Made by a program: the position numbers and the translations under genes. Below the pieces are notes generated by a model, which worked only from the letters and a program-made list of their open reading frames with translations, did no database searches and was not told where the DNA came from. Shown piece after piece: positions 4,284 to 35,709 of a stretch of 64,000 nucleotides of DNA (the stretch's first letter is position 1; every line of letters starts with the position of its first letter). The DNA is taken from assembly GCF_055900595.2 (NCBI RefSeq), contig NZ_CM148325.1, one strand, 5' to 3'.

Positions 4284-4537
4284 ATCAGGCCATCCAGTTT
4301 CCGGACAGGGAAGAGTGGAACGAGAGTAAAAAATGCGTTTGTTTTCCCGCTCTTGTAAATGGTATGCAGCTCACTTGCGCTATTACTGGAGAGAGTCTGG
4401 CGAACCGCTTTGCAGGAGATACGCCAGAACAGTGGTTAGCGAGTTTTCGTCAGCATCGCTGGGACCTGGAAGAAGAAGCAGAAAGCTTGATTCAGGATCA
4501 AAGCGAAGATGATCAAGGTTGGGTTTGGTTACCCTGA
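4280..4537 (+). CDS. yrdB: DUF1488 protein YrdB
   Basis: 85-aa ORF overlapping the aroE stop by 4 nt; conserved synteny. Confidence 0.8.
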
Positions 4538-5067
4538 TCCAGATACTCGTCCTTCCATTTCACGTAGTTATTCGCGGAATAGCGTAACCCGGCCTTCTCT
4601 TCATCACTTAACGGGCGGATCTGTTTGACGGGGCTACCGAGATACAGATATCCGCTCTCCAGCCGTTTATTTTGTGGGACCAGGCTACCCGCACCAATCA
4701 TCACATCATCTTCTACTATTGCACCATCAAGTAAAATTGATGCCATCCCAACCAACACTCGATTGCCAATGGTACAGCCGTGGAGCATCACCTTATGACC
4801 AACAGTGACATCTTCGCCAATGGTTAATGGGTTGCCATCTGGGTTGTATGAGGACTTATGGGTGACATGCAACATACTGCCATCCTGGATATTGGTGCGT
4901 GCTCCAATCTGTACATAATGTACATCACCACGAATCACAACGAGTGGCCAGATCCCCACATCATCAGCCAAACGAACGTCACCGATCACTACACTACTAT
5001 CGTCGATCATTACGCGCTGACCGATTTGTGGAAAAAGATCGCGGTATGGGCGTAAAACATCAGACAT
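4513..5067 (-). CDS. yrdA: hexapeptide-repeat (gamma-carbonic anhydrase-like) protein YrdA
   Basis: 184 aa from MSDVLRPY; left-handed beta-helix hexapeptide repeats visible (IGxxV periodicity). Confidence 0.9.
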   Translation of the reverse strand: MSDVLRPYRDLFPQIGQRVMIDDSSVVIGDVRLADDVGIWPLVVIRGDVHYVQIGARTNIQDGSMLHVTHKSSYNPDGNPLTIGEDVTVGHKVMLHGCTIGNRVLVGMASILLDGAIVEDDVMIGAGSLVPQNKRLESGYLYLGSPVKQIRPLSDEEKAGLRYSANNYVKWKDEYLDQGNQTQP

Positions 5068-5219
5068 ACTCACCTCAACAATAAATGATTTCCTAATGAC
5101 TTTGGGTGCATTATTGGCCTAGTGCAAGTCTTTTAGTATGCAAAAAAGCACCGTTTTGTGTGCGAATGCAGCAAAAAGGGTGAAAAAACAACAAACAGAA
5201 AAAAAGATCAAAAAAGTAC

Positions 5220-5247
5220 TTGTGCAAAAAATTGGGATCCCTATAAT
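5220..5247 (+). promoter_or_regulatory. rRNA operon promoter P1 (-35 TTGTGC, 16-bp spacer, -10 TATAAT), preceded by an A/T-rich UP-element-like tract
   Basis: Hexamers read directly in sequence; an A-rich tract at about 5180-5219 lies upstream; the arrangement resembles rrn P1 promoters. Confidence 0.7.
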
Positions 5248-5327
5248 GCGCCTCCGTTGAGACGACAACGTGAAACACTTCACAAGATGGTCGTAACAAC
5301 AAAGAGAAAAAATCCTGAAATTCAGGG

Positions 5328-5355
5328 TTGACTCTGAAAGAGGAAAGCGTAATAT
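5328..5355 (+). promoter_or_regulatory. rRNA operon promoter P2 (-35 TTGACT, 16-bp spacer, -10 TAATAT, GC-rich discriminator)
   Basis: Consensus-like hexamers about 110 bp downstream of P1, followed by the discriminator ACGCCACC. Confidence 0.7.
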
Positions 5356-5405
5356 ACGCCACCTCGCGACAGTGAGCTGAAAGCCGCGTCGCAACTGCTC
5401 TTTAA

Positions 5406-5417
5406 CAATTTATCAGA
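5406..5417 (+). promoter_or_regulatory. boxA antitermination element of the rRNA leader
   Basis: TGCTCTTTAACA matches the rrn boxA consensus, between P2 and the 16S gene. Confidence 0.8.
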
Positions 5418-5539
5418 CAATCTGTGTGGGCACTCGAAGATACGGATTCTTAACGTCGCAAGACGAAAAATGAATACCAAGTCTCAAGAGTGAACACGTA
5501 ATTCATTACGAAGTTTAATTCTTTGAGCATCAAACTTTT

Positions 5540-7081
<1,542 letters not shown>

Positions 7082-7149: not shown

Positions 7150-7226
<77 letters not shown>

Positions 7227-7268: not shown

Positions 7269-7344
7269 GGGGCTATAGCTCAGCTGGGAGAGCGCCTGCT
7301 TTGCACGCAGGAGGTCTGCGGTTCGATCCCGCATAGCTCCACCA
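7269..7344 (+). tRNA. alaU: tRNA-Ala (TGC anticodon)
   Basis: GGGGCTATAGCTCAGCTGGGAGAGCGCCTGCTTTGCACGCAGGAGGTCTGCGGTTCGATCCCGCATAGCTCCACCA in the spacer. Confidence 0.95.
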
Positions 7345-7527
7345 TCTCTGTAGTGATTAAATAAAAAATACTTCAGAGTGTACCTGCAAAGGTTCACTGC
7401 GAAGTTTTGCTCTTTAAAAATCTGGATCAAGCTGAAAATTGAAACACTGAACAACGAAAGTTGTTCGTGAGTCTCTCAAATTTTCGCAACACGATGATGA
7501 ATCTCAAGAAACATCTTCGGGTTGTGA

Positions 7528-10432
<2,905 letters not shown>

Positions 10433-10525
10433 ACAACGCCGAAGGTGTTTTGGCGGATTGAGAGAAGATTTTCAGCCTGATACAGATTAAATCAGAACGC
10501 AGATGCGGTCTGATGAAACAGAATT

Positions 10526-10645
10526 TGCCTGGCGGCCTTAGCGCGGTGGTCCCACCTGACCCCATGCCGAACTCAGAAGTGAAACGCCGTAGCGCCGATG
10601 GTAGTGTGGGGTCTCCCCATGCGAGAGTAGGGAACTGCCAGGCAT
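10526..10645 (+). rRNA. rrfD: 5S ribosomal RNA (first copy)
   Basis: TGCCTGGCGGCCTTAGCGCGGTGG...GGAACTGCCAGGCAT; 120 nt. Confidence 0.97.
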
Positions 10646-10796: not shown

Positions 10797-10872
10797 GCTG
10801 ATATGGCTCAGTTGGTAGAGCGCACCCTTGGTAAGGGTGAGGTCCCCAGTTCGACTCTGGGTATCAGCACCA
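10797..10872 (+). tRNA. thrV: tRNA-Thr (GGT anticodon)
   Basis: GCTGATATGGCTCAGTTGGTAGAGCGCACCCTTGGTAAGGGTGAGGTCCCCAGTTCGACTCTGGGTATCAGCACCA between the two 5S genes. Confidence 0.95.
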
Positions 10873-10909: not shown

Positions 10910-11029
10910 TGTCTGGCGGCAGTAGCGCGGTGGTCCCACCTGACCCCATGCCGAACTCAGAAGTGAAACGCCGTAGCGCCGATGGTAGTGTGGGGTCTCC
11001 CCATGCGAGAGTAGGGAACTGCCAGACAT
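10910..11029 (+). rRNA. rrfF: 5S ribosomal RNA (second, distal copy)
   Basis: TGTCTGGCGGCAGTAGCGCGGTGG...GGAACTGCCAGACAT; 120 nt; differs from the first copy by paired changes in helix I. Confidence 0.95.
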
Positions 11030-11042
11030 CAAATAAAACAAA

Positions 11043-11074
11043 AGGCTCAGTCGGAAGACTGGGCCTTTTGTTTT
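11043..11074 (+). terminator. rRNA operon terminator T1 (Rho-independent hairpin plus T-tract)
   Basis: AGGCTCAGTCGGAAGACTGGGCCT stem-loop followed by TTTTGTTTT. Confidence 0.85.
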
Positions 11075-11210
11075 ATCTGTTGTTTGTCGGTGAACACTCT
11101 CCCGAGTAGGACAAATCCGCCGGGAGCGGATTTGAACGTTGCGAAGCAACGGCCCGGAGGGTGGCGGGCAGGACGCCCGCCATAAACTGCCAGACATCAA
11201 ATCAAGCGAA

Positions 11211-11237
11211 AGGCCATCCGAAAGGATGGCCTTTTTG
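11211..11237. terminator. rRNA operon terminator T2, probably also terminating convergent yhdZ
   Basis: AGGCCATCCGAAAGGATGGCCT hairpin followed by TTTTTGCTTTT; yhdZ ends about 20 nt further on. Confidence 0.8.
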
Positions 11238-27169: not shown

Positions 27170-28180
27170 TCAGTGCTGCCGCAAAAAGTCTTCAATGTCA
27201 GTCAGTGAGGATACCCCTTCCATCGGACCTTGTCGCATTACGGCGAGCGCGCCGCTGGCATTTGCATATTGCAGCGCCTTGTGTGCCGGGATACCGGATA
27301 AGAAAAGAGTGACAAACGTTGCGCCAAAGCAGTCGCCTGCACCCGTTGGATCGATTATTTCGATATCGTGGCCTGCAACATGCTGGGCGTGTAATGTTCC
27401 GTTTTTAAGCTTGTAATAGCTGGCCCCACGCTGGGCGCGTTTTATCGCCACATGTTTTACGCCGCCGTGGAGAAGATCGCTAACAATCTGTTCTTCTGAC
27501 AGATTTTTGTGACGCGCGAAGAAAGGGAGTTCGCTTTCGCTGGGGATAAAAATATCCGTATATTCAATCAAATAATCGAGAGCCTGCGCCATTTCAGGAA
27601 TACTCAGCATCTCTTTGCGAATATTGGGATCGAAAGAAACGGTGCCGCCAGCCGATTTGATCGTCGTTATTGCTTTACGCATGACATCGATCATGCGAAA
27701 TGAGAACAATGATGAGCCCACAATATGCAGATGGTTACACTGTTTTAGCAGATCCTTATCAATGTGCTCGGCAGTAAACAAACCGCAGGCGCTGTTAGGG
27801 ATATTAAAGACGAAATCCCGCTGCTGGGGATTTTGATAACTCACGAATGCCGTACCTGTTACGGCATTGTTCATAACATGGATCCCATCGGTAATGACAC
27901 CTTCATGACGGAGGCGCTCTATAATGAGTCGGCCAAAATCATCATTACCAACACATCCGAAGAAGATGGCCCGATGGGACAGTTTTGCCACCTGAGCAGC
28001 AAAAATTGCTGGTGCACCGCTGGGAAATGGCCCGATAAACTCCCCAGGCTGAGTGAATTTTTGATGTGGGTTGCGGGACAAAAACTCGGCCAGCAATTCG
28101 CCCATAGCGCAGATAGTTATTGTCACAAAACCCCTCTCATTCCTGAAGCCTTTCGCGATTGGACCAGGTAAAGCACTCAT
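27170..28180 (-). CDS. PfkB-family carbohydrate kinase (island kinase A)
   Basis: 336-aa ORF; PfkB signature DPTGAGDCFG and the GG dipeptide region; paralogous to 33661-34623; true start may lie at an internal GTG or ATG 18-25 codons downstream (alignment with the paralog starts near TITICAMGELL). Confidence 0.85.
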   Translation of the reverse strand: MSALPGPIAKGFRNERGFVTITICAMGELLAEFLSRNPHQKFTQPGEFIGPFPSGAPAIFAAQVAKLSHRAIFFGCVGNDDFGRLIIERLRHEGVITDGIHVMNNAVTGTAFVSYQNPQQRDFVFNIPNSACGLFTAEHIDKDLLKQCNHLHIVGSSLFSFRMIDVMRKAITTIKSAGGTVSFDPNIRKEMLSIPEMAQALDYLIEYTDIFIPSESELPFFARHKNLSEEQIVSDLLHGGVKHVAIKRAQRGASYYKLKNGTLHAQHVAGHDIEIIDPTGAGDCFGATFVTLFLSGIPAHKALQYANASGALAVMRQGPMEGVSSLTDIEDFLRQH

Positions 28181-28967
28181 TACTGGTATAAAGGATAACG
28201 AAATCAGCCGACTGCAATTGTTGCTGATATTGTTCGTTAATGCTGCGGCTGACGATCACATTTTCTGCCTGATGCAAATGTCCAATGGCAGCCGTTGATG
28301 GCGCAGGATCGGCGGCAACGATAACTGTCTTATTCTGGGCATGATCGAAACAGAGCTGCCAGGCAGCGGCAAGTCTGGGAACGTTGATATTTAAAGTACC
28401 ATCAGCATCCAGATGGCTGATTTCCAGAATGCTGTGTGTAATGGTGAAATGCTGAAGTGCCTGTTCGAGCGGTTTTCCGGCCAGTGCGGTGTCGGGGCGC
28501 AGCATTTCACTGCCAGCCAGTATTATTTCGCCATCAATAAACTGATTTGCCAGCAGCGCATGTTCGGGATCGTTGGTGATCAGACGCAGTTTTTTCACTT
28601 CGCTGAGCAATGGAATGATCTTACGGCAGATTGTCCCATGTCCAAGAAATAGCGTGTCACGATCGCGAATTAACCGTGCGCAATGTCGTGCTATTTCCAT
28701 TTGTTGTGCCAGAGACAATGGCGCGATCGGTTGTATCGCTTCTGGTTCAGAGGAGAGGGGGGTCGCAATAGCACCGCCAAATGATCGCTTTAAATATCCC
28801 TGTTGCTCCAGATAACTGAGATCGCCGCGGATCGTCACGCCAGAGACACCAAGTTGCGCAGATAAGTCATCAACTTTGATTTCACCCTGGGCGGCAACAA
28901 TTTCTGCAATTTTTAATCTGCGTTTCAGTAGGTTAGACGATTTTCTCGGCACGTTAACACTCTTCAT
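28137..28967 (-). CDS. DeoR-family transcriptional regulator
   Basis: 276 aa; N-terminal DeoR-type winged HTH (RRLKIAEIVAAQGEIKVDDLSAQLGVSGVTIRGDLSYLEQQGYL), C-terminal sugar-phosphate-binding-like domain; upstream of kinase A and divergent from the aldolase-transporter operon. Confidence 0.85.
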   Translation of the reverse strand: MKSVNVPRKSSNLLKRRLKIAEIVAAQGEIKVDDLSAQLGVSGVTIRGDLSYLEQQGYLKRSFGGAIATPLSSEPEAIQPIAPLSLAQQMEIARHCARLIRDRDTLFLGHGTICRKIIPLLSEVKKLRLITNDPEHALLANQFIDGEIILAGSEMLRPDTALAGKPLEQALQHFTITHSILEISHLDADGTLNINVPRLAAAWQLCFDHAQNKTVIVAADPAPSTAAIGHLHQAENVIVSRSINEQYQQQLQSADFVILYTSNECFTWSNRERLQE

Positions 28968-29281
28968 TGGCCTTTAATGCGTAACACTATAGCCCCTTGT
29001 ATTTTTCTTTGAAAGTTATCCTTCAATAATATCGACAATTCGAAAAGGAAATCATGGGCCAGAAATCGCAACGAAAATAGCTTAATGCATTGAAAAATAG
29101 ATGAATTAATTCATATTTATGCAGAGGTGTTATTGGTTTCACTTGCAAAGTGAAAAACAAATTAAGTTATTTTTTGTAAGTTATTTTGATGATATTCGAC
29201 ATGTATCACGCTTTTTACCGCTTTTGCTGTGCTAGTTTGCTTTCAAAATGAAAGTGAAGATTCTCTTTCTTCATTTTGTAA

Positions 29282-30163
<882 letters not shown>

Positions 30164-30198
30164 GACGTTGTACCCTACAAAAACAATGAGGATTGTTT

Positions 30199-31089
30199 AT
30201 GAAAAATATTAAATTACTTGGTTCCGCTATGATGGTGAGCCTGGCATTGTTCTCGCAAAGTTCATTGGCAAAAGAGTATAAAATTGGAGCTTCATTATTA
30301 ACACAGCAACACCCTTTTTATATCGACCTCGCAAATGCAATGAAAGAAGAGGCGAAAAAAGACAATGTCAATTTAAGTGTCTCTATTGCCAATCAGGATT
30401 TAAACAAACAGCTTTCTGATGTTGAGGATTTTATTACTAAAAAGGTAGATGCCATTATTATCTCTCCGGTCGATTCGAAAGGTGTCCAGGCAGCGATAAT
30501 TAAAGCCGATAAGGCTGGTATTCCCGTTATCACCGTTGACGTTGCCGCGGAAGGCGTTCCGGTCGTATCGCATGTTGCGACCGATAATTACGCGGGTGGC
30601 GTTGAAGCTGGTAAGTTAATGGGCAAACTTTTGAATGGTAAAGGTACTGTAGCCATTATTTCTTATCCTGCACTACAATCGGTGGTTGCACGCGTTGATG
30701 GCTTTAAGAAAGGATTAAGCGATACGCCGGATATTAAAATTGTTGCTGAACAGCCGGGTATAACGCGGGCTGAAGCGTTAACGACTGCGCAAAACATTAT
30801 GCAGGCCAACGCCAACCTGAATGGTCTGTTTGGCTTTGGTGATGATGCGGCGCTGGCGGCGGTTATAGCGGCGAAATCTGCGCATAACGACAACATCAAA
30901 ATCATTGGTTTTGATGGTATGAAAGAAGCGCGAGATGCCGTTGATAGTGAAAAAACGTTTGCGGCCGTGATTCGGCAATATCCCGATCAAATGGGTGCTA
31001 AAGCCATTGATGCCGCTGTTGATCACCTCAATGGTAAACCGGTAGAGAAAATGATCCCGGTACAACCCGGCGTTTATACAGGTAAATAA
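30199..31089 (+). CDS. periplasmic sugar-binding protein of ABC transporter (RbsB-like)
   Basis: ATG at 30199 with GAGGA Shine-Dalgarno; signal peptide MKNIKLLGSAMMVSLALFSQSSLA then KEYKIGAS...; the track ORF starts 2 codons upstream at an alternative codon. Confidence 0.85.
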   Translation: MKNIKLLGSAMMVSLALFSQSSLAKEYKIGASLLTQQHPFYIDLANAMKEEAKKDNVNLSVSIANQDLNKQLSDVEDFITKKVDAIIISPVDSKGVQAAIIKADKAGIPVITVDVAAEGVPVVSHVATDNYAGGVEAGKLMGKLLNGKGTVAIISYPALQSVVARVDGFKKGLSDTPDIKIVAEQPGITRAEALTTAQNIMQANANLNGLFGFGDDAALAAVIAAKSAHNDNIKIIGFDGMKEARDAVDSEKTFAAVIRQYPDQMGAKAIDAAVDHLNGKPVEKMIPVQPGVYTGK

Positions 31090-31104
31090 TAAACATCTTC
31101 ATTT

Positions 31105-31135
31105 CACAACAAAACGTTATCGACGTTTTGTTGTG
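31105..31135 (+). other. intercistronic stem-loop between binding-protein and ATPase genes
   Basis: 13-bp perfect inverted repeat CACAACAAAACGT / ACGTTTTGTTGTG with a 5-nt loop, read directly. Confidence 0.7.
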
Positions 31136-31149
31136 ACACCGAGGTCATT

Positions 31150-32649
31150 ATGACGGATGTTATTCTTGATGTTTCGCATATTGCGAAGACATTTGGTCAT
31201 GTTCAGGCATTAAAAGATATTACACTCTCTTTACGTAAAGGGCGGGTACATACTTTATTAGGTGAGAATGGTGCCGGTAAATCGACATTAATGAAAATAT
31301 TGGCCGGTGTTTATCCGCCAACCCAGGGAACAATAAAACTACGTGGTGAAACTATCACAATTAATAATCCGCAGCATTCACGTCAGTTAGGGATTGCTAT
31401 TATTTTTCAGGAACTGAGCCTGAGTAATAATATGACAGTGGCGGAAAATATTTATGCCAATAATGAACCGCGACGTTTTGGCATTATTAACGATAAAAAA
31501 ATGCTCGCAGATTGCCAGAATCTCCTCGCGGAACTGGGCATCCCACTGGATCCGCTGGAAATGGTCGGCAATATGTCGATGGCACATAGGCAACTGGTAG
31601 AAATTGCCAAAGCCTTAAGCTATGCAGCAGATGTCGTGATTATGGATGAACCGACATCTTCGCTAAGTGATAATGAAGCAGAGATTCTGTTTAACATTAT
31701 TGAGAAATTAAAGCAGCGAGGTTGTGCGGTTATTTATATCTCTCATCGCATGGATGAAATTATGCGGATTTCAGATGATATTTCGGTGATCCGCGACGGT
31801 GAGTATATCGCTACGCATGAAAAGAAAAACAGTGATATCCAGCATTTGATTGCCCAAATGGTTGGTCGGGAAATGAAAAATATTTGGCCAGCACGTCTTG
31901 GGGAAAAGCCGGATGAAAATGTTCCTGCAAAACTGGAAGTAAAAAACCTTTCCCATCCTTCGCTTTTTAAAGAGGTCAGTTTCGCTGTGCGTCCGGGGGA
32001 AGTCCTCGGATTTTTTGGCCTGGTGGGGGCCGGGCGTTCCGATGTGATGAAGGCGCTATTTGGCCTCGTTTCGTATCACGGGACTGTGTTGATTGATGGT
32101 AAGGAAGTCAGGATCGCTAATCCCAAACAGGCTATTGATCATGGCATTGCTTTTGTGACCGAAAACCGCAAGGAAGAAGGGTTAGTGCTGATGCACGACG
32201 TCAATATGAACACGCACCATGTGGCGTTTCAATATAACGCTTCGCGGATGGGACTCATCAATCACCGACAAGAAGAGGCGAAGACGCTGCAATCTATTGC
32301 CAGAATGAACACTAAAGTGAGTTCTGTACATCAGGCAGTGGGAGCGCTGAGCGGCGGTAATCAACAGAAAATCGTGTTATCCAAGTGGCTGGAGAAAACT
32401 CCGCGTATTTTATTGCTCGATGAGCCAACGCGCGGAGTGGATGTCGGCGCAAAATTTGAAATCTATAACGTGATACGTCAACTGGCTGCGGCAGGGACAG
32501 CAATTATTCTGGTGTCCTCTGAACTGCCAGAGGTCATGGCACTTAGCGATCGTCTGGTGGTAATGCGTAATAAAACGATTGCCGATATTTATTCATGTGA
32601 AAATTTAACGCAGACACAGGTAATGACCGCTGCAACAGGAGTACGTTAA
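31150..32649 (+). CDS. sugar ABC transporter ATP-binding protein with tandem ABC domains (CUT2 type, RbsA-like)
   Basis: 499 aa; Walker A GENGAGKST (N-domain) and GLVGAGRS (C-domain), signature LSGGNQQK, Walker B LLLDEPTRGVD. Confidence 0.9.
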   Translation: MTDVILDVSHIAKTFGHVQALKDITLSLRKGRVHTLLGENGAGKSTLMKILAGVYPPTQGTIKLRGETITINNPQHSRQLGIAIIFQELSLSNNMTVAENIYANNEPRRFGIINDKKMLADCQNLLAELGIPLDPLEMVGNMSMAHRQLVEIAKALSYAADVVIMDEPTSSLSDNEAEILFNIIEKLKQRGCAVIYISHRMDEIMRISDDISVIRDGEYIATHEKKNSDIQHLIAQMVGREMKNIWPARLGEKPDENVPAKLEVKNLSHPSLFKEVSFAVRPGEVLGFFGLVGAGRSDVMKALFGLVSYHGTVLIDGKEVRIANPKQAIDHGIAFVTENRKEEGLVLMHDVNMNTHHVAFQYNASRMGLINHRQEEAKTLQSIARMNTKVSSVHQAVGALSGGNQQKIVLSKWLEKTPRILLLDEPTRGVDVGAKFEIYNVIRQLAAAGTAIILVSSELPEVMALSDRLVVMRNKTIADIYSCENLTQTQVMTAATGVR

Positions 32650-33639
32650 ATGACAGAGAAAACTCTTGCCAGTCCGAAACCTTCGGAAATTCCCATTGCA
32701 AATAATTTTAAAAAAGTCTTCAGGCAATATGGCGGTATCCTCAGTGGAATGGTGGTGTTAATCATTCTGTTCAGTCTTATTAATGACAGTTTTTTTACTG
32801 CCAATAACATTACTAATATTATTCTTCAGGTTTCGATAATTGCAATTACCGCCTATGGAATGACTTATGTACTTTTGCTTGGCGATATTGATTTATCAGT
32901 CGGTTCAACCATTGCATTGATTGGCACATTTGCTGCGCTTGGGGCTTCATGGGGAATTCCATTTATTTTATTGGTCCCATTATCCATTATTGCAGCCCTG
33001 GCTCTGGGGATGATAAATGGTGGCTTGACGGCTATAGCGGGTATCCCTTCGTTTATTGTCACCGTTGCTACAATGGGGATCTTCCGTGGTATCGCTTATA
33101 TAGTGACCGATGGTATGCCCATCATGATTAAAGATGATGCCTTTCTGGCGCTGGGGAATGGAGAATTTCTCTATATACCTATTCCTATCTGGATATTAAT
33201 CATCTTATTGCTGATTAACCACTTCATTCTTACTAAAACAACCTTTGGACGAAAAATTTATATCACTGGTGGTAATAAAGAAGCGGCAGTTTATTCAGGG
33301 ATAAATGTCACCCGCTTGAAAATTAAAGTCTTTATGATTACTGCAGTGCTGGCAGGTATCAGCGGGATGATCCTCGCCTCACGCCTCTATTCCGGGCAAC
33401 CGAATTCCGCGTTGAGCTACGAACTGGATGCTATTGCCGCGGCTGTACTGGGAGGCACCAGCCTGAACGGCGGCTATGGAACGGTGGTGGGGACGGTAAT
33501 CGGGGCATTAACCATCGGCGTTATTAATAATGGCATGAACTTAATGAACGTTCCCTATTTCTATCAGATGGTGGTTAAAGGATTAGTCATTCTTGTAGCC
33601 GTTTATTTTGACGTAAGAAATAAAAGAAAACGTAGCTAA
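32650..33639 (+). CDS. sugar ABC transporter permease (RbsC-like)
   Basis: 329-aa hydrophobic multi-pass protein; the ATG directly abuts the ATPase stop (TAAATG). Confidence 0.88.
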   Translation: MTEKTLASPKPSEIPIANNFKKVFRQYGGILSGMVVLIILFSLINDSFFTANNITNIILQVSIIAITAYGMTYVLLLGDIDLSVGSTIALIGTFAALGASWGIPFILLVPLSIIAALALGMINGGLTAIAGIPSFIVTVATMGIFRGIAYIVTDGMPIMIKDDAFLALGNGEFLYIPIPIWILIILLLINHFILTKTTFGRKIYITGGNKEAAVYSGINVTRLKIKVFMITAVLAGISGMILASRLYSGQPNSALSYELDAIAAAVLGGTSLNGGYGTVVGTVIGALTIGVINNGMNLMNVPYFYQMVVKGLVILVAVYFDVRNKRKRS

Positions 33640-33660
33640 TCATTTCAAGGAATTAATTAT

Positions 33661-34623
33661 ATGAGTAAGGTCTTCACAATTGGAGAAATTCTGGTTGAAA
33701 TTATGGCGAGTAAAATCGGCCAGCCATTTGATCAACCAGGTATCTGGAACGGCCCTTATCCCAGTGGTGCGCCCGCTATTTTTATCGACCAGGTGACACG
33801 TCTTGGTGTTCCGTGCGGCATCATTAGCTGTGTGGGGAATGATGGCTTTGGTGATATTAATATACATCGTCTGGCTGCTGATGGTGTGGATATCAGGGGG
33901 ATTTCAGTCTTACCTCTGGAAGCCACCGGGAGTGCCTTTGTTACTTATCATAACTCTGGCGATCGCGATTTTATTTTTAATATCAAGAATGCCGCTTGCG
34001 GTAAATTATCGGCGCAGCATGTTGATGAAAATATACTGAAAGACTGTACCCATTTTCATATTATGGGCTCATCCCTGTTTTCATTTCATATGGTAGACGC
34101 AGTAAAAAAAGCAGTAACCATCGTTAAAGCAAATGGTGGCGTTATTTCTTTCGACCCGAATATTCGTAAAGAGATGCTCGATATTCCAGAAATGCGTGAC
34201 GCCCTCCACTTTGTTCTTGAGTTAACAGATATCTATATGCCCAGCGAGGGAGAAGTGTTGCTCTTGTCGCCACACTCGACACCGGAGCGTGCAATCGCTG
34301 GTTTTCTTGAAGAAGGTGTTAAAGAGGTGATTGTGAAGCGCGGCAATCAAGGTGCCAGTTACTACTCCGCGAATGAGCAGTTTCATGTTGAGAGCTATCC
34401 GGTGGAAGAAGTTGACCCGACCGGTGCGGGAGACTGCTTTGGTGGCGCGTGGATTGCCTGCCGCCAGCTAGGGTTTGACGCCCATCGGGCATTACAATAT
34501 GCCAACGCCTGCGGTGCACTGGCGGTAACCCGACGTGGCCCAATGGAGGGAACGTCTCGCCTTGCGGAAATCGAAGCGTTCATCCAGCGCCATGACATGT
34601 CCATTCGGGAAGCAGCACAATGA
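33661..34623 (+). CDS. PfkB-family carbohydrate kinase (island kinase B)
   Basis: 320 aa; DPTGAGDCFG signature; shares long identical stretches with kinase A (PYPSGAPAIF, GSSLFSF, SFDPNIRKEML, ALQYANA, GPMEG). Confidence 0.9.
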   Translation: MSKVFTIGEILVEIMASKIGQPFDQPGIWNGPYPSGAPAIFIDQVTRLGVPCGIISCVGNDGFGDINIHRLAADGVDIRGISVLPLEATGSAFVTYHNSGDRDFIFNIKNAACGKLSAQHVDENILKDCTHFHIMGSSLFSFHMVDAVKKAVTIVKANGGVISFDPNIRKEMLDIPEMRDALHFVLELTDIYMPSEGEVLLLSPHSTPERAIAGFLEEGVKEVIVKRGNQGASYYSANEQFHVESYPVEEVDPTGAGDCFGGAWIACRQLGFDAHRALQYANACGALAVTRRGPMEGTSRLAEIEAFIQRHDMSIREAAQ

Positions 34624-35666
34624 AAAACGAAATTTGGTCGTGGATTGGCGATCTCTCGCAGGTTGCCGGAATTAAACACTATGAGTTACGCAGTGGCAGA
34701 TCAAAGGGGACAGAAGCGTTTGATGTCCGTACTGGTGCGGGATTGGCATTTACGGTGGTAAAAGATCGCGCGCTGGATATTGCATGGGCCAGCTACAAGG
34801 ACACTGCGCTCTCTTTTATCACCCCCAACGGCATTGTCGCCCCCGCTTTTTTTGAGTCTCAGGGCAACGGGTTTTTACGTAGCTTCTACGCGGGGTTACT
34901 GACTACCTGCGGACTTAGCTACATTGGCACGCCCTGTGAGGATAACGGAGAAACGCTGGGGTTACACGGGCGTTTGGCTGCGACTCCAGCAGAAGAGGTG
35001 GGGTATCGCACAGAACGGACCGACGACGGCATTGAATTTGTCATCAATGGCAAAGTACGGGAAACACGATTGTTCGGTGAAAATCTGACGCTGGAAAGGA
35101 CCATTCGCTGCCGTTATGGCGAAAATGTGCTGCGCATTGAAGACAAGGTGACTAATCATGGTTTCACCCGCCAGCCGCTGCAAATTCTTTATCACTTTAA
35201 TTACGGCTGGCCTTTATTATCGCCACAGGCAGAAATCTTGCTGTCGGCTAAAAGCGTAACGCCACGAACCCCGCATGCGGCGGAAGGGTTAACCAGTCAT
35301 CTGGAGATTTGTACCCCACAGCCCAGTTTTGACGAGCAGGTTTACTATCTCACGTTGAATAGCGACAGTCAGGGGATGAGTAAAGTTGCGCTGGTGAACG
35401 CCGAACTGGGGTGGGGAATTTACGAGAAATTCGACACCATGCAGCTACCCAACTTTATCCAGTGGAAAAATTTAGGCGCGGGTGAATATGTTATGGGGCT
35501 GGAGGTCAGCAATAGTTTTCCTGACGGTCGTGATAAAGAACGAGCGCAGGGGCGTCTGCCCTTTATAGAGCCAGGGGAAACAAAGACATACTGCTTTGAG
35601 CTGGGAATTGTTGATGGCGATGCTGAAATTAGCGCGTTGAAAGCGGAAATTGCAAGCTACCGTTAG
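34620..35666 (+). CDS. conserved protein of unknown function; possibly an aldose-epimerase-like fold (DUF4432-type), not verified
   Basis: 348-aa ORF whose ATG overlaps the kinase B stop (ATGA); no recognisable catalytic motif by eye; the family assignment is a guess from memory. Confidence 0.6.
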   Translation: MKNEIWSWIGDLSQVAGIKHYELRSGRSKGTEAFDVRTGAGLAFTVVKDRALDIAWASYKDTALSFITPNGIVAPAFFESQGNGFLRSFYAGLLTTCGLSYIGTPCEDNGETLGLHGRLAATPAEEVGYRTERTDDGIEFVINGKVRETRLFGENLTLERTIRCRYGENVLRIEDKVTNHGFTRQPLQILYHFNYGWPLLSPQAEILLSAKSVTPRTPHAAEGLTSHLEICTPQPSFDEQVYYLTLNSDSQGMSKVALVNAELGWGIYEKFDTMQLPNFIQWKNLGAGEYVMGLEVSNSFPDGRDKERAQGRLPFIEPGETKTYCFELGIVDGDAEISALKAEIASYR

Positions 35667-35682
35667 CTAACGGCAATAAAAA

Positions 35683-35709
35683 CGCCGGGCAGCGTTAACA
35701 GGCCCGGCG
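35683..35709. terminator. hairpin between the convergent island operon and accC; likely bidirectional terminator
   Basis: CGCCGGGC / GCCCGGCG inverted repeat, an A-tract on one side and TT on the other. Confidence 0.6.

What the first reader, a model, noticed from the sequence alone, without database searches (positions are those of the whole stretch)
5180..5420. Complete rrn control region: UP-like A-tract, P1, P2 and boxA
This is the well-known tandem promoter architecture of E. coli rRNA operons and is fully readable here: an A-rich tract, P1 (TTGTGC/TATAAT), P2 (TTGACT/TAATAT with GC-rich discriminator) and boxA TGCTCTTTAACA. It confirms the operon is intact and transcribed on the plus strand, away from yrdA.
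Basis: partly seen in the sequence, partly recalled or inferred. Interest (0 to 1): 0.2.

Follow-up and report, generated by a model that had tools for sequence, protein, structure and literature searches.

The report
E. coli rrnD promoter and leader
This is the ordinary, well-studied control region (two tandem promoters plus the boxA antitermination signal) of the Escherichia coli rrnD ribosomal RNA operon, nearly identical to the K-12 copy, so it is correct but not new.

Summary
P1 has -35 TTGTGC (5220-5225), a 16-bp spacer and -10 TATAAT (5242-5247). P2 has -35 TTGACT (5328-5333), a 16-bp spacer and -10 TAATAT (5350-5355). boxA TGCTCTTTAACA is at 5396-5407. A tract that is 67.5% A lies upstream of P1.

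The segment is 97.9% identical to the K-12 rrnD leader and 57-74% identical to the other six K-12 leaders. It sits between divergent yrdA and a complete operon (16S, tRNA-Ile, tRNA-Ala, 23S, 5S, tRNA-Thr, 5S), which is the rrnD layout.

Published Cappable-seq start sites for K-12 rrnD correspond to G5256 (P1) and C5362 (P2).

None of the five differences from K-12 inside the finding touches a hexamer, a discriminator or boxA.

"Complete" is an overstatement. The Fis-site region upstream of -60 lies mostly before 5180, and boxC (5423-5430) lies just after 5420. Consensus scanning alone detects only P2. P1 is identified by orthology, not by statistics.

Verdict: already known, correctly interpreted, low interest.

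The parts
4513..5067 (-). yrdA (gamma carbonic anhydrase family / hexapeptide-repeat protein). It is transcribed divergently from the rrn operon.
   Evidence: ORF 4513-5073 on the minus strand. The annotated CDS in the collinear genome NZ_CP027579.1 maps to 4513-5067. K-12 has the same neighbour.
5104..5196 (.). Candidate Fis-site region upstream of P1. Best-scoring 15-mers are centred at about 5111 (-145), 5156 (-100) and 5185-5189 (-71/-67). This part is inferred only.
   Evidence: A crude Fis consensus scorer gave its three highest scores in the scanned rrnB region to the three positions I recall as the rrnB P1 Fis sites (-143, -102, -71). It gave weaker hits at equivalent positions here. 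The background hit rate is high, 44 per kb. PMC5110994 places the rrnD Fis sites between -397 and -60.
5197..5218 (+). UP element (-59 to -38 of P1). The proximal subsite AAAAAAGTA (5210-5218) matches AAAAAARNR at 9 of 9 positions. The distal subsite (5197-5209) matches NNAWWWWWTTTTN at 7 of 10 specified positions.
   Evidence: Sequence. Consensus sequences are quoted in PMC4132738. The window has G at 5216 (-40) where K-12 has A; both are R and fit the consensus.
5220..5225 (+). P1 -35 hexamer TTGTGC
   Evidence: It aligns with TTGTCA of rrnA/B/C/G and is identical to K-12 rrnD.
5242..5247 (+). P1 -10 hexamer TATAAT, 16 bp after the -35
   Evidence: It is invariant in all seven K-12 leaders. 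PMC5110994 names TATAAT as the rrnD P1 -10 hexamer.
5248..5256 (+). P1 GC-rich discriminator GCGCCTCC and the inferred start site G5256
   Evidence: The K-12 Cappable-seq P1 start (U00096.2 position 3427069) maps to the G nine bases after the -10. The window sequence is identical there. rrnD P1 is the GTP-responsive P1 promoter (PMC9239199).
5328..5333 (+). P2 -35 hexamer TTGACT
   Evidence: Invariant in all seven K-12 leaders.
5350..5355 (+). P2 -10 hexamer TAATAT, 16 bp after the -35
   Evidence: Shared with rrnH and rrnE; the other class (rrnA/B/C/G) has TATTAT.
5356..5362 (+). P2 discriminator ACGCCA and the inferred start site C5362, 106 nt downstream of the P1 start
   Evidence: The K-12 Cappable-seq P2 start (3426962) maps to the C seven bases after the -10.
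5366..5392 (+). boxB-like stem-loop in the leader RNA, ending 3 nt before boxA
   Evidence: RNAfold predicts a hairpin here, and at the equivalent place in all seven K-12 leaders even though the two leader classes differ in sequence. This is a prediction only. The z-score of the wider segment is not significant.
5396..5407 (+). Leader boxA TGCTCTTTAACA (binding site for NusB and NusE/S10)
   Evidence: Exact match. Invariant in all seven K-12 leaders. The rrn boxA is UGCUCUUUA followed by the spacer acaauuua (PMC2724277).
5423..5430 (+). boxC TGTGTGGG, just outside the finding's range
   Evidence: The column is invariant in the alignment. The TGTGTGGG sequence of boxC is from memory; the boxB-boxA-boxC order is described in PMC2724277.
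5540..11027 (+). The structural genes controlled by this region: 16S 5540-7081, tRNA-Ile 7150-7226, tRNA-Ala 7269-7344, 23S 7528-10432, 5S 10528-10643, tRNA-Thr 10797-10872, 5S 10912-11027
   Evidence: Full-length Rfam matches and ARAGORN. The order is the same in NZ_CP027579.1.
11033..11235 (+). Two terminator-like hairpins after the second 5S gene (11033-11076 and 11208-11235)
   Evidence: PMC5110994 refers to rrnD terminators next to yhdZ.

Best explanation
The segment is the promoter and leader of the rrnD ribosomal RNA operon of a non-K-12 Escherichia coli strain.

RNA polymerase with sigma-70 starts at two tandem promoters. P1 has a poor -35 (TTGTGC), a 16-bp spacer, a consensus -10 and an 8-bp GC-rich discriminator, and starts at G5256. 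Its open complex is short-lived, so its output depends on the concentration of the initiating nucleotide (GTP for rrnD) and on ppGpp/DksA. P1 is boosted by alpha-CTD contacts with the A-rich UP element (5197-5218) and by Fis bound further upstream. P2 starts at C5362 and is less strongly regulated than P1.

Both transcripts carry a boxB-like hairpin, boxA and boxC. boxA RNA recruits NusB/NusE and the other Nus factors, which makes elongation fast and resistant to Rho through 16S and 23S.

Shown here: the sequence elements, their spacing, the orthology with K-12 rrnD and the intact operon. Taken from the literature on the K-12 ortholog: the start sites, the Fis, UP and iNTP control, and antitermination. 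Inferred: that the same holds in this strain.
For: - Motifs and spacing.
- Identity to the seven K-12 leaders over 5180-5420: 97.9% to rrnD and 57-74% to the others.
- Synteny is aroE-yrdB-yrdA, then the rrn operon, then yhdZ. The operon has Ile/Ala spacer tRNAs and a distal tRNA-Thr followed by a second 5S gene.
- The leader is 100% identical in three complete E. coli genomes and is present in 5395 of 5426.
- The Cappable-seq start sites for all 14 K-12 rrn promoters map to one consistent register: nine bases after the P1 -10 and seven bases after the P2 -10. The rrnD P1 start is a G.
- PMC5110994: rrnD has P1 and P2, Fis sites and a TATAAT -10.
- PMC9239199: GTP dependence of rrnD P1.
- PMC2724277: rrn boxA/boxB/boxC and Nus factor binding.
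- The differences from K-12 avoid every functional element. The one change between -89 and +29 is A to G at -40, which still fits the UP consensus. There is no change from +52 to the 16S 5' end.
Against: - No transcript data exist for this strain.
- P1 is not detected by a generic sigma-70 consensus scan.
- The Fis-site predictions are not above background.
- Leader folding is not more stable than shuffled sequence.
- None of these points contradicts the explanation. They only mean that function rests on orthology.
Confidence: 0.97

Rival explanations
1. The leader is a chimera. It would belong to another rrn operon (the rrnH/rrnE class) or be a gene-conversion product, rather than a true rrnD ortholog.
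For: From the palindrome upstream of P2 to the 16S gene, the rrnD, rrnH and rrnE leaders are almost identical. That part therefore cannot discriminate between operons.
Against: The P1 region and everything upstream match only rrnD, including the TTGTGC -35, the +1 G and the A-tract. The flanking genes yrdA and yhdZ and the distal tRNA-Thr with a second 5S gene are the rrnD context.
Confidence: 0.02
2. The elements are present, but the strain-specific changes make this copy functionally different from K-12 rrnD, for example with altered P1 strength or P1/P2 balance. The changes are G at -40 in the UP element and three substitutions plus a 1-nt deletion between P1 and P2.
For: There are five differences inside 5180-5420, one of them in the proximal UP subsite. 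Only 429 genome records carry a leader at least 99% identical to this one.
Against: The -40 change is purine to purine and still matches AAAAAARNR at 9 of 9 positions. The other changes lie at +30 to +51 of the P1 transcript, outside any known element. The hexamers, discriminators, start sites and boxA are unchanged.
Confidence: 0.08
3. The motif matches are chance resemblances in an AT-rich intergenic region.
For: Generic consensus scans are not enriched.
Against: The segment is 97.9% identical to an experimentally characterised locus. The sequence TCCCTATAATGCGCC and the 233 bases from boxA to the 16S gene are identical to K-12 rrnD, and all but two positions of that stretch are invariant across all seven K-12 leaders. 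The boxA pattern has two matches against 0.26 expected.
Confidence: 0.01

Closest known systems
E. coli K-12 MG1655 rrnD P1-P2 promoter/leader (upstream of rrsD, b3278)
   Same: - Same flanking genes, same element order and same spacing.
- Identical -35 and -10 hexamers, discriminators, start-site bases (G for P1, C for P2), boxB-like hairpin, boxA and boxC.
- 97.9% identity over 5180-5420.
   Different: In the 475-bp intergenic region the window differs from K-12 at:
- 5078, 5092, 5107, 5121 and 5166, all upstream of the finding;
- 5216 (G for A at -40);
- 5285, 5294 and 5301;
- a 1-nt shorter A-run at about 5306, so the two starts are 106 nt apart instead of 107.
K-12 rrnH and rrnE leaders (the same leader class)
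   Same: The P2 promoter, the palindrome CCTGAAATTCAGG upstream of it, the TAATAT -10, the leader hairpin, boxA and boxC are all shared.
   Different: The P1 -35 differs (TTGTCT in rrnH, TTGCGG in rrnE). The UP region is T-rich rather than A-rich. P1 starts with A, not G. Identity over the finding is 70-74%.
rrnB P1/P2, the paradigm rRNA promoter
   Same: The architecture is the same: UP element, 16-bp spacer, TATAAT, GC-rich 8-bp discriminator, start 9 nt after the -10, Fis sites upstream, P2 downstream, then boxA.
   Different: The -35 is TTGTCA, the UP element is A/T-mixed, the P2 -10 is TATTAT and the P1-P2 distance is 117 nt. Identity over the finding's range is about 57%.
Phage lambda nutL/nutR antitermination sites
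   Same: They have boxA, boxB and boxC elements that nucleate a Nus-factor complex on RNA polymerase (PMC2724277).
   Different: The order is boxA then boxB in lambda, and boxB then boxA in rrn. Lambda boxA is CGCUCUUA and needs the N protein. The rrn boxA is UGCUCUUUA, works without N and acts only against Rho-dependent terminators.

Membership tests
E. coli rrn tandem-promoter control region | Lies directly upstream of a complete 16S-tRNA-23S-5S operon on the same strand | tested here: met
   Full-length Rfam matches: 16S 5540-7081 and 23S 7528-10432 (model positions 1 to end), and two 5S genes. Three tRNAs were also found.
E. coli rrn tandem-promoter control region | P1 core: -35-like hexamer, 16-bp spacer, TATAAT, GC-rich 8-bp discriminator GCGCC(A/T)CC | tested here: met
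   TTGTGC, 16 bp, TATAAT, GCGCCTCC. The core from CCCTATAAT to GCGCC is invariant across the seven K-12 operons.
E. coli rrn tandem-promoter control region | Transcription starts 9 nt after the P1 -10 and 7 nt after the P2 -10 | not testable with these tools
   Measured in K-12 by Cappable-seq (PMC4782308, supplementary table 2). The window sequence is identical at and around both sites. There are no data for this strain.
E. coli rrn tandem-promoter control region | A+T-rich UP element at -40 to -60 of P1 | tested here: met
   The proximal subsite matches AAAAAARNR at 9 of 9 positions, at -46 to -38. The distal subsite matches at 7 of 10. alpha-CTD binding was not tested.
E. coli rrn tandem-promoter control region | Fis binding sites upstream of -60 | tested here: inconclusive
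   Motif hits near -145, -100 and -71/-67 mirror the rrnB positions, but their scores are within background. The literature places the rrnD Fis sites between -397 and -60.
E. coli rrn tandem-promoter control region | Second promoter P2 about 105-120 bp downstream of P1 | tested here: met
   The two starts are 106 nt apart. The distance is 107-108 nt in K-12 rrnD, rrnE and rrnH and 116-117 nt in the others.
E. coli rrn tandem-promoter control region | Leader antiterminator with boxB hairpin, boxA UGCUCUUUA and boxC | tested here: met
   boxA is an exact match at 5396-5407. boxC is at 5423-5430. A hairpin is predicted at 5366-5392 in this leader and in all seven K-12 leaders.
rrnD specifically (versus rrnA, B, C, E, G, H) | Flanked by yrdA and yhdZ; Ile/Ala spacer tRNAs; distal tRNA-Thr plus a second 5S gene; P1 starts with G | tested here: met
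   Best identity is to K-12 rrnD.
rrn P1 regulation class (control by ppGpp/DksA and initiating NTP) | Short-lived open complex, sensitive to iNTP and ppGpp | not testable with these tools
   Only the sequence determinants are seen: the GC-rich discriminator, the 16-bp spacer and the non-consensus -35. The behaviour is taken from the literature.

The most novel reading that the evidence does not exclude
The minority haplotype of this leader measurably changes rrnD P1 strength or the P1/P2 balance in this E. coli lineage. The haplotype has G at -40 in the proximal UP subsite, three substitutions and a 1-nt deletion between P1 and P2, and five changes in the Fis-site region. If true, this would be natural regulatory variation in an rRNA promoter.
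Probability: 0.07. Interest if true: 0.15.

Novelty: already known. Interest (0 to 1): 0.05.

Why it matters
It matters only as annotation. It fixes the operon as rrnD, sets its orientation, gives base-level coordinates for P1, P2, the start sites, boxA and boxC, and shows that the strain's rRNA control signals are intact. It opens no new question. The rrn P1/P2 and boxA system is one of the most thoroughly characterised regulatory regions in bacteria.

Tried and rejected
- Generic sigma-70 scan. It finds P2 only, and the number of sites is not above the shuffled expectation, so consensus matching cannot carry the claim.
- UP proximal consensus search. The motif is as frequent as chance in the window; only its position relative to P1 is informative.
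- Fis-site scoring. It gave its three highest scores in the scanned rrnB region to the three rrnB site positions I recall, but the window hits score lower and the background is 44 per kb, so I treat them as suggestive only.
- Folding of the leader 5362-5440. The z-score is -0.13, so there is no thermodynamic signal. The boxB-like hairpin is supported only by its recurrence in all the leaders. I did not count column-wise covariation, because the hairpin is out of register between the two leader classes in alignment A1.
- Hirvonen et al. 2001, the reference for the UP and Fis contributions at the seven P1 promoters, is not held in the library. Its content is cited only through PMC5110994.
- A bioRxiv paper on insulation of ribosomal promoters does not mention rrnD or yrdA.
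- Rfam found nothing in 11000-64000.
- The minus-strand ORFs across the leader (5111-5394) were dismissed as mechanical ORFs inside a non-coding leader.

Full report
**Observation.**
- The stretch 5180-5219 is 67.5% A, against 25% for the window. AT skew peaks at 0.75 in 5160-5219.
- P1 has -35 TTGTGC at 5220-5225, a 16-bp spacer, -10 TATAAT at 5242-5247 and the discriminator GCGCCTCC.
- P2 has -35 TTGACT at 5328-5333, a 16-bp spacer, -10 TAATAT at 5350-5355 and the discriminator ACGCCA.
- boxA TGCTCTTTAACA lies at 5396-5407.

**Is it more than chance?** Consensus matching alone is not.
- The generic sigma-70 scan finds only P2, and the number of sites is below the shuffled mean.
- P1 is missed because TTGTGC matches TTGACA at only 3 of 6 positions.
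- The proximal UP consensus is as common in the window as chance predicts.

Homology carries the claim.
- The 15-mer TCCCTATAATGCGCC occurs once in the window.
- The boxA pattern has two matches against 0.26 expected. The second match is the known spacer boxA upstream of 23S.

**Identity of the locus.**
- Rfam finds full-length 16S (5540-7081), 23S (7528-10432) and two 5S genes.
- ARAGORN finds tRNA-Ile and tRNA-Ala in the spacer, and tRNA-Thr between the two 5S genes.
- Upstream, on the minus strand, lies yrdA (4513-5067), preceded by yrdB and aroE. Downstream lies yhdZ.
- This is the rrnD layout of K-12.

I fetched the seven K-12 MG1655 leaders and aligned them with the window.
- Over 5180-5420 the window is 97.9% identical to rrnD, 74% to rrnH, 70% to rrnE and 57-58% to rrnA, B, C and G.
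- The leader is 100% identical in three complete E. coli genomes and is present at at least 80% coverage in 5395 of 5426.
- The whole window is collinear with strain 2013C-4282 at 98.98% identity. The source is therefore an E. coli strain other than K-12 and other than 2013C-4282.

**Start sites.**
- Supplementary table 2 of the Cappable-seq paper (PMC4782308) lists triphosphorylated 5' ends for P1 and P2 of all seven K-12 operons.
- After conversion to NC_000913.3 coordinates, all 14 fall in one register. P1 starts nine bases after TATAAT, at an A in six operons and a G in rrnD. P2 starts at a C seven bases after its -10.
- The window is identical to K-12 rrnD from -39 to +8 of P1 and around P2. 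The equivalents are G5256 and C5362, 106 nt apart (107 nt in K-12).
- Gaal et al. 2016 (PMC5110994) state that rrnD has P1 and P2, that Fis sites upstream activate P1, and that the -10 is TATAAT.

**Other elements.**
- The proximal UP subsite at -46 to -38 (5210-5218, AAAAAAGTA) fits AAAAAARNR at 9 of 9 positions. The distal subsite fits at 7 of 10 (consensus from PMC4132738).
- Between the P2 start and boxA, every leader folds into a hairpin that ends 3 nt before boxA, although the two leader classes differ in sequence. In the window this boxB-like hairpin is 5366-5392.
- boxC TGTGTGGG is at 5423-5430 (the boxC sequence is from memory). The order of the boxes and the binding of Nus factors are described in PMC2724277.
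- A crude Fis scorer gave its three highest scores in the scanned rrnB region to the three positions I recall as the rrnB sites. It gave weaker hits at -145, -100 and -71/-67 here. The background is high, so this is only suggestive.

**Differences from K-12.**
- Inside the finding, the window has G for A at 5216 (-40, still a purine as the consensus requires), substitutions at 5285, 5294 and 5301, and an A-run one base shorter at about 5306.
- Upstream there are five more substitutions.
- No hexamer, discriminator, start site, hairpin or box is touched. From +52 of P1 to the 16S 5' end there is no difference at all.
- I infer purifying selection on these elements, plus homogenisation of the P2-leader segment among operons.

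**How it works.** The steps below are taken from the literature on the ortholog and are not shown here.
- Sigma-70 RNA polymerase initiates at P1. Its poor -35, 16-bp spacer and GC-rich discriminator make the open complex unstable.
- P1 activity therefore tracks the initiating NTP and ppGpp/DksA. The UP element and Fis raise it.
- P2 is less strongly regulated than P1.
- boxA RNA nucleates the Nus-factor antitermination complex that carries polymerase through the operon.

- "Complete" is overstated. The Fis region (-397 to -60, window 4859-5196) mostly precedes 5180, and boxC follows 5420.
- Operon integrity is shown by the rRNA and tRNA matches, not by the promoters.

**Novelty.**
- The feature is already known.
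- The only reading with any novelty is that the minority leader haplotype changes promoter strength. I rate that unlikely.

Noticed in passing
window 27173-35700: A cluster lies between yhdT and accC that encodes two sugar kinases, a DeoR regulator, a tagatose-bisphosphate-family aldolase, an ABC sugar transporter and an aldose 1-epimerase. From memory, these two genes are adjacent in K-12. At least 80% of the cluster is covered in only 1419 of 5426 complete E. coli genomes, so it is an accessory island.
   Followed up: partly
window 7408-7520: The spacer boxA (TGCTCTTTAAAA, one mismatch to the leader boxA) sits at the 5' edge of the Rfam 'StyR-44' match (7412-7520), immediately upstream of 23S. 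That Rfam family therefore appears to cover the 23S leader of the rrn spacer rather than an independent gene.
   Followed up: no
window 5314-5326: A perfect 13-bp palindrome CCTGAAATTCAGG lies 1 bp upstream of the P2 -35. It is present only in the rrnD/E/H class of leaders. On the minus strand it is followed by a T-run and is flagged as terminator-like. I know of no assigned function.
   Followed up: no
window 22888-23184 (minus strand): The fis gene, whose product activates rrn P1 promoters, lies about 17.6 kb downstream of this P1 in the same window, in the dusB-fis operon.
   Followed up: no
window 10432-10530: The window is 2 bp shorter than strain 2013C-4282 between 23S and the first 5S gene: 5S starts at 10528 here and at 10530 there. 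The window is 98.98% identical to that strain overall, although the promoter/leader is 100% identical.
   Followed up: no
K-12 loci L003-L008 (rrn leaders): In the Cappable-seq table the P1 read counts are about 100-fold lower for rrnA, B and C than for rrnD, E and H. The P1 leaders of rrnA, B and C are identical in sequence, so this may be a multi-mapping artefact rather than biology.
   Followed up: no
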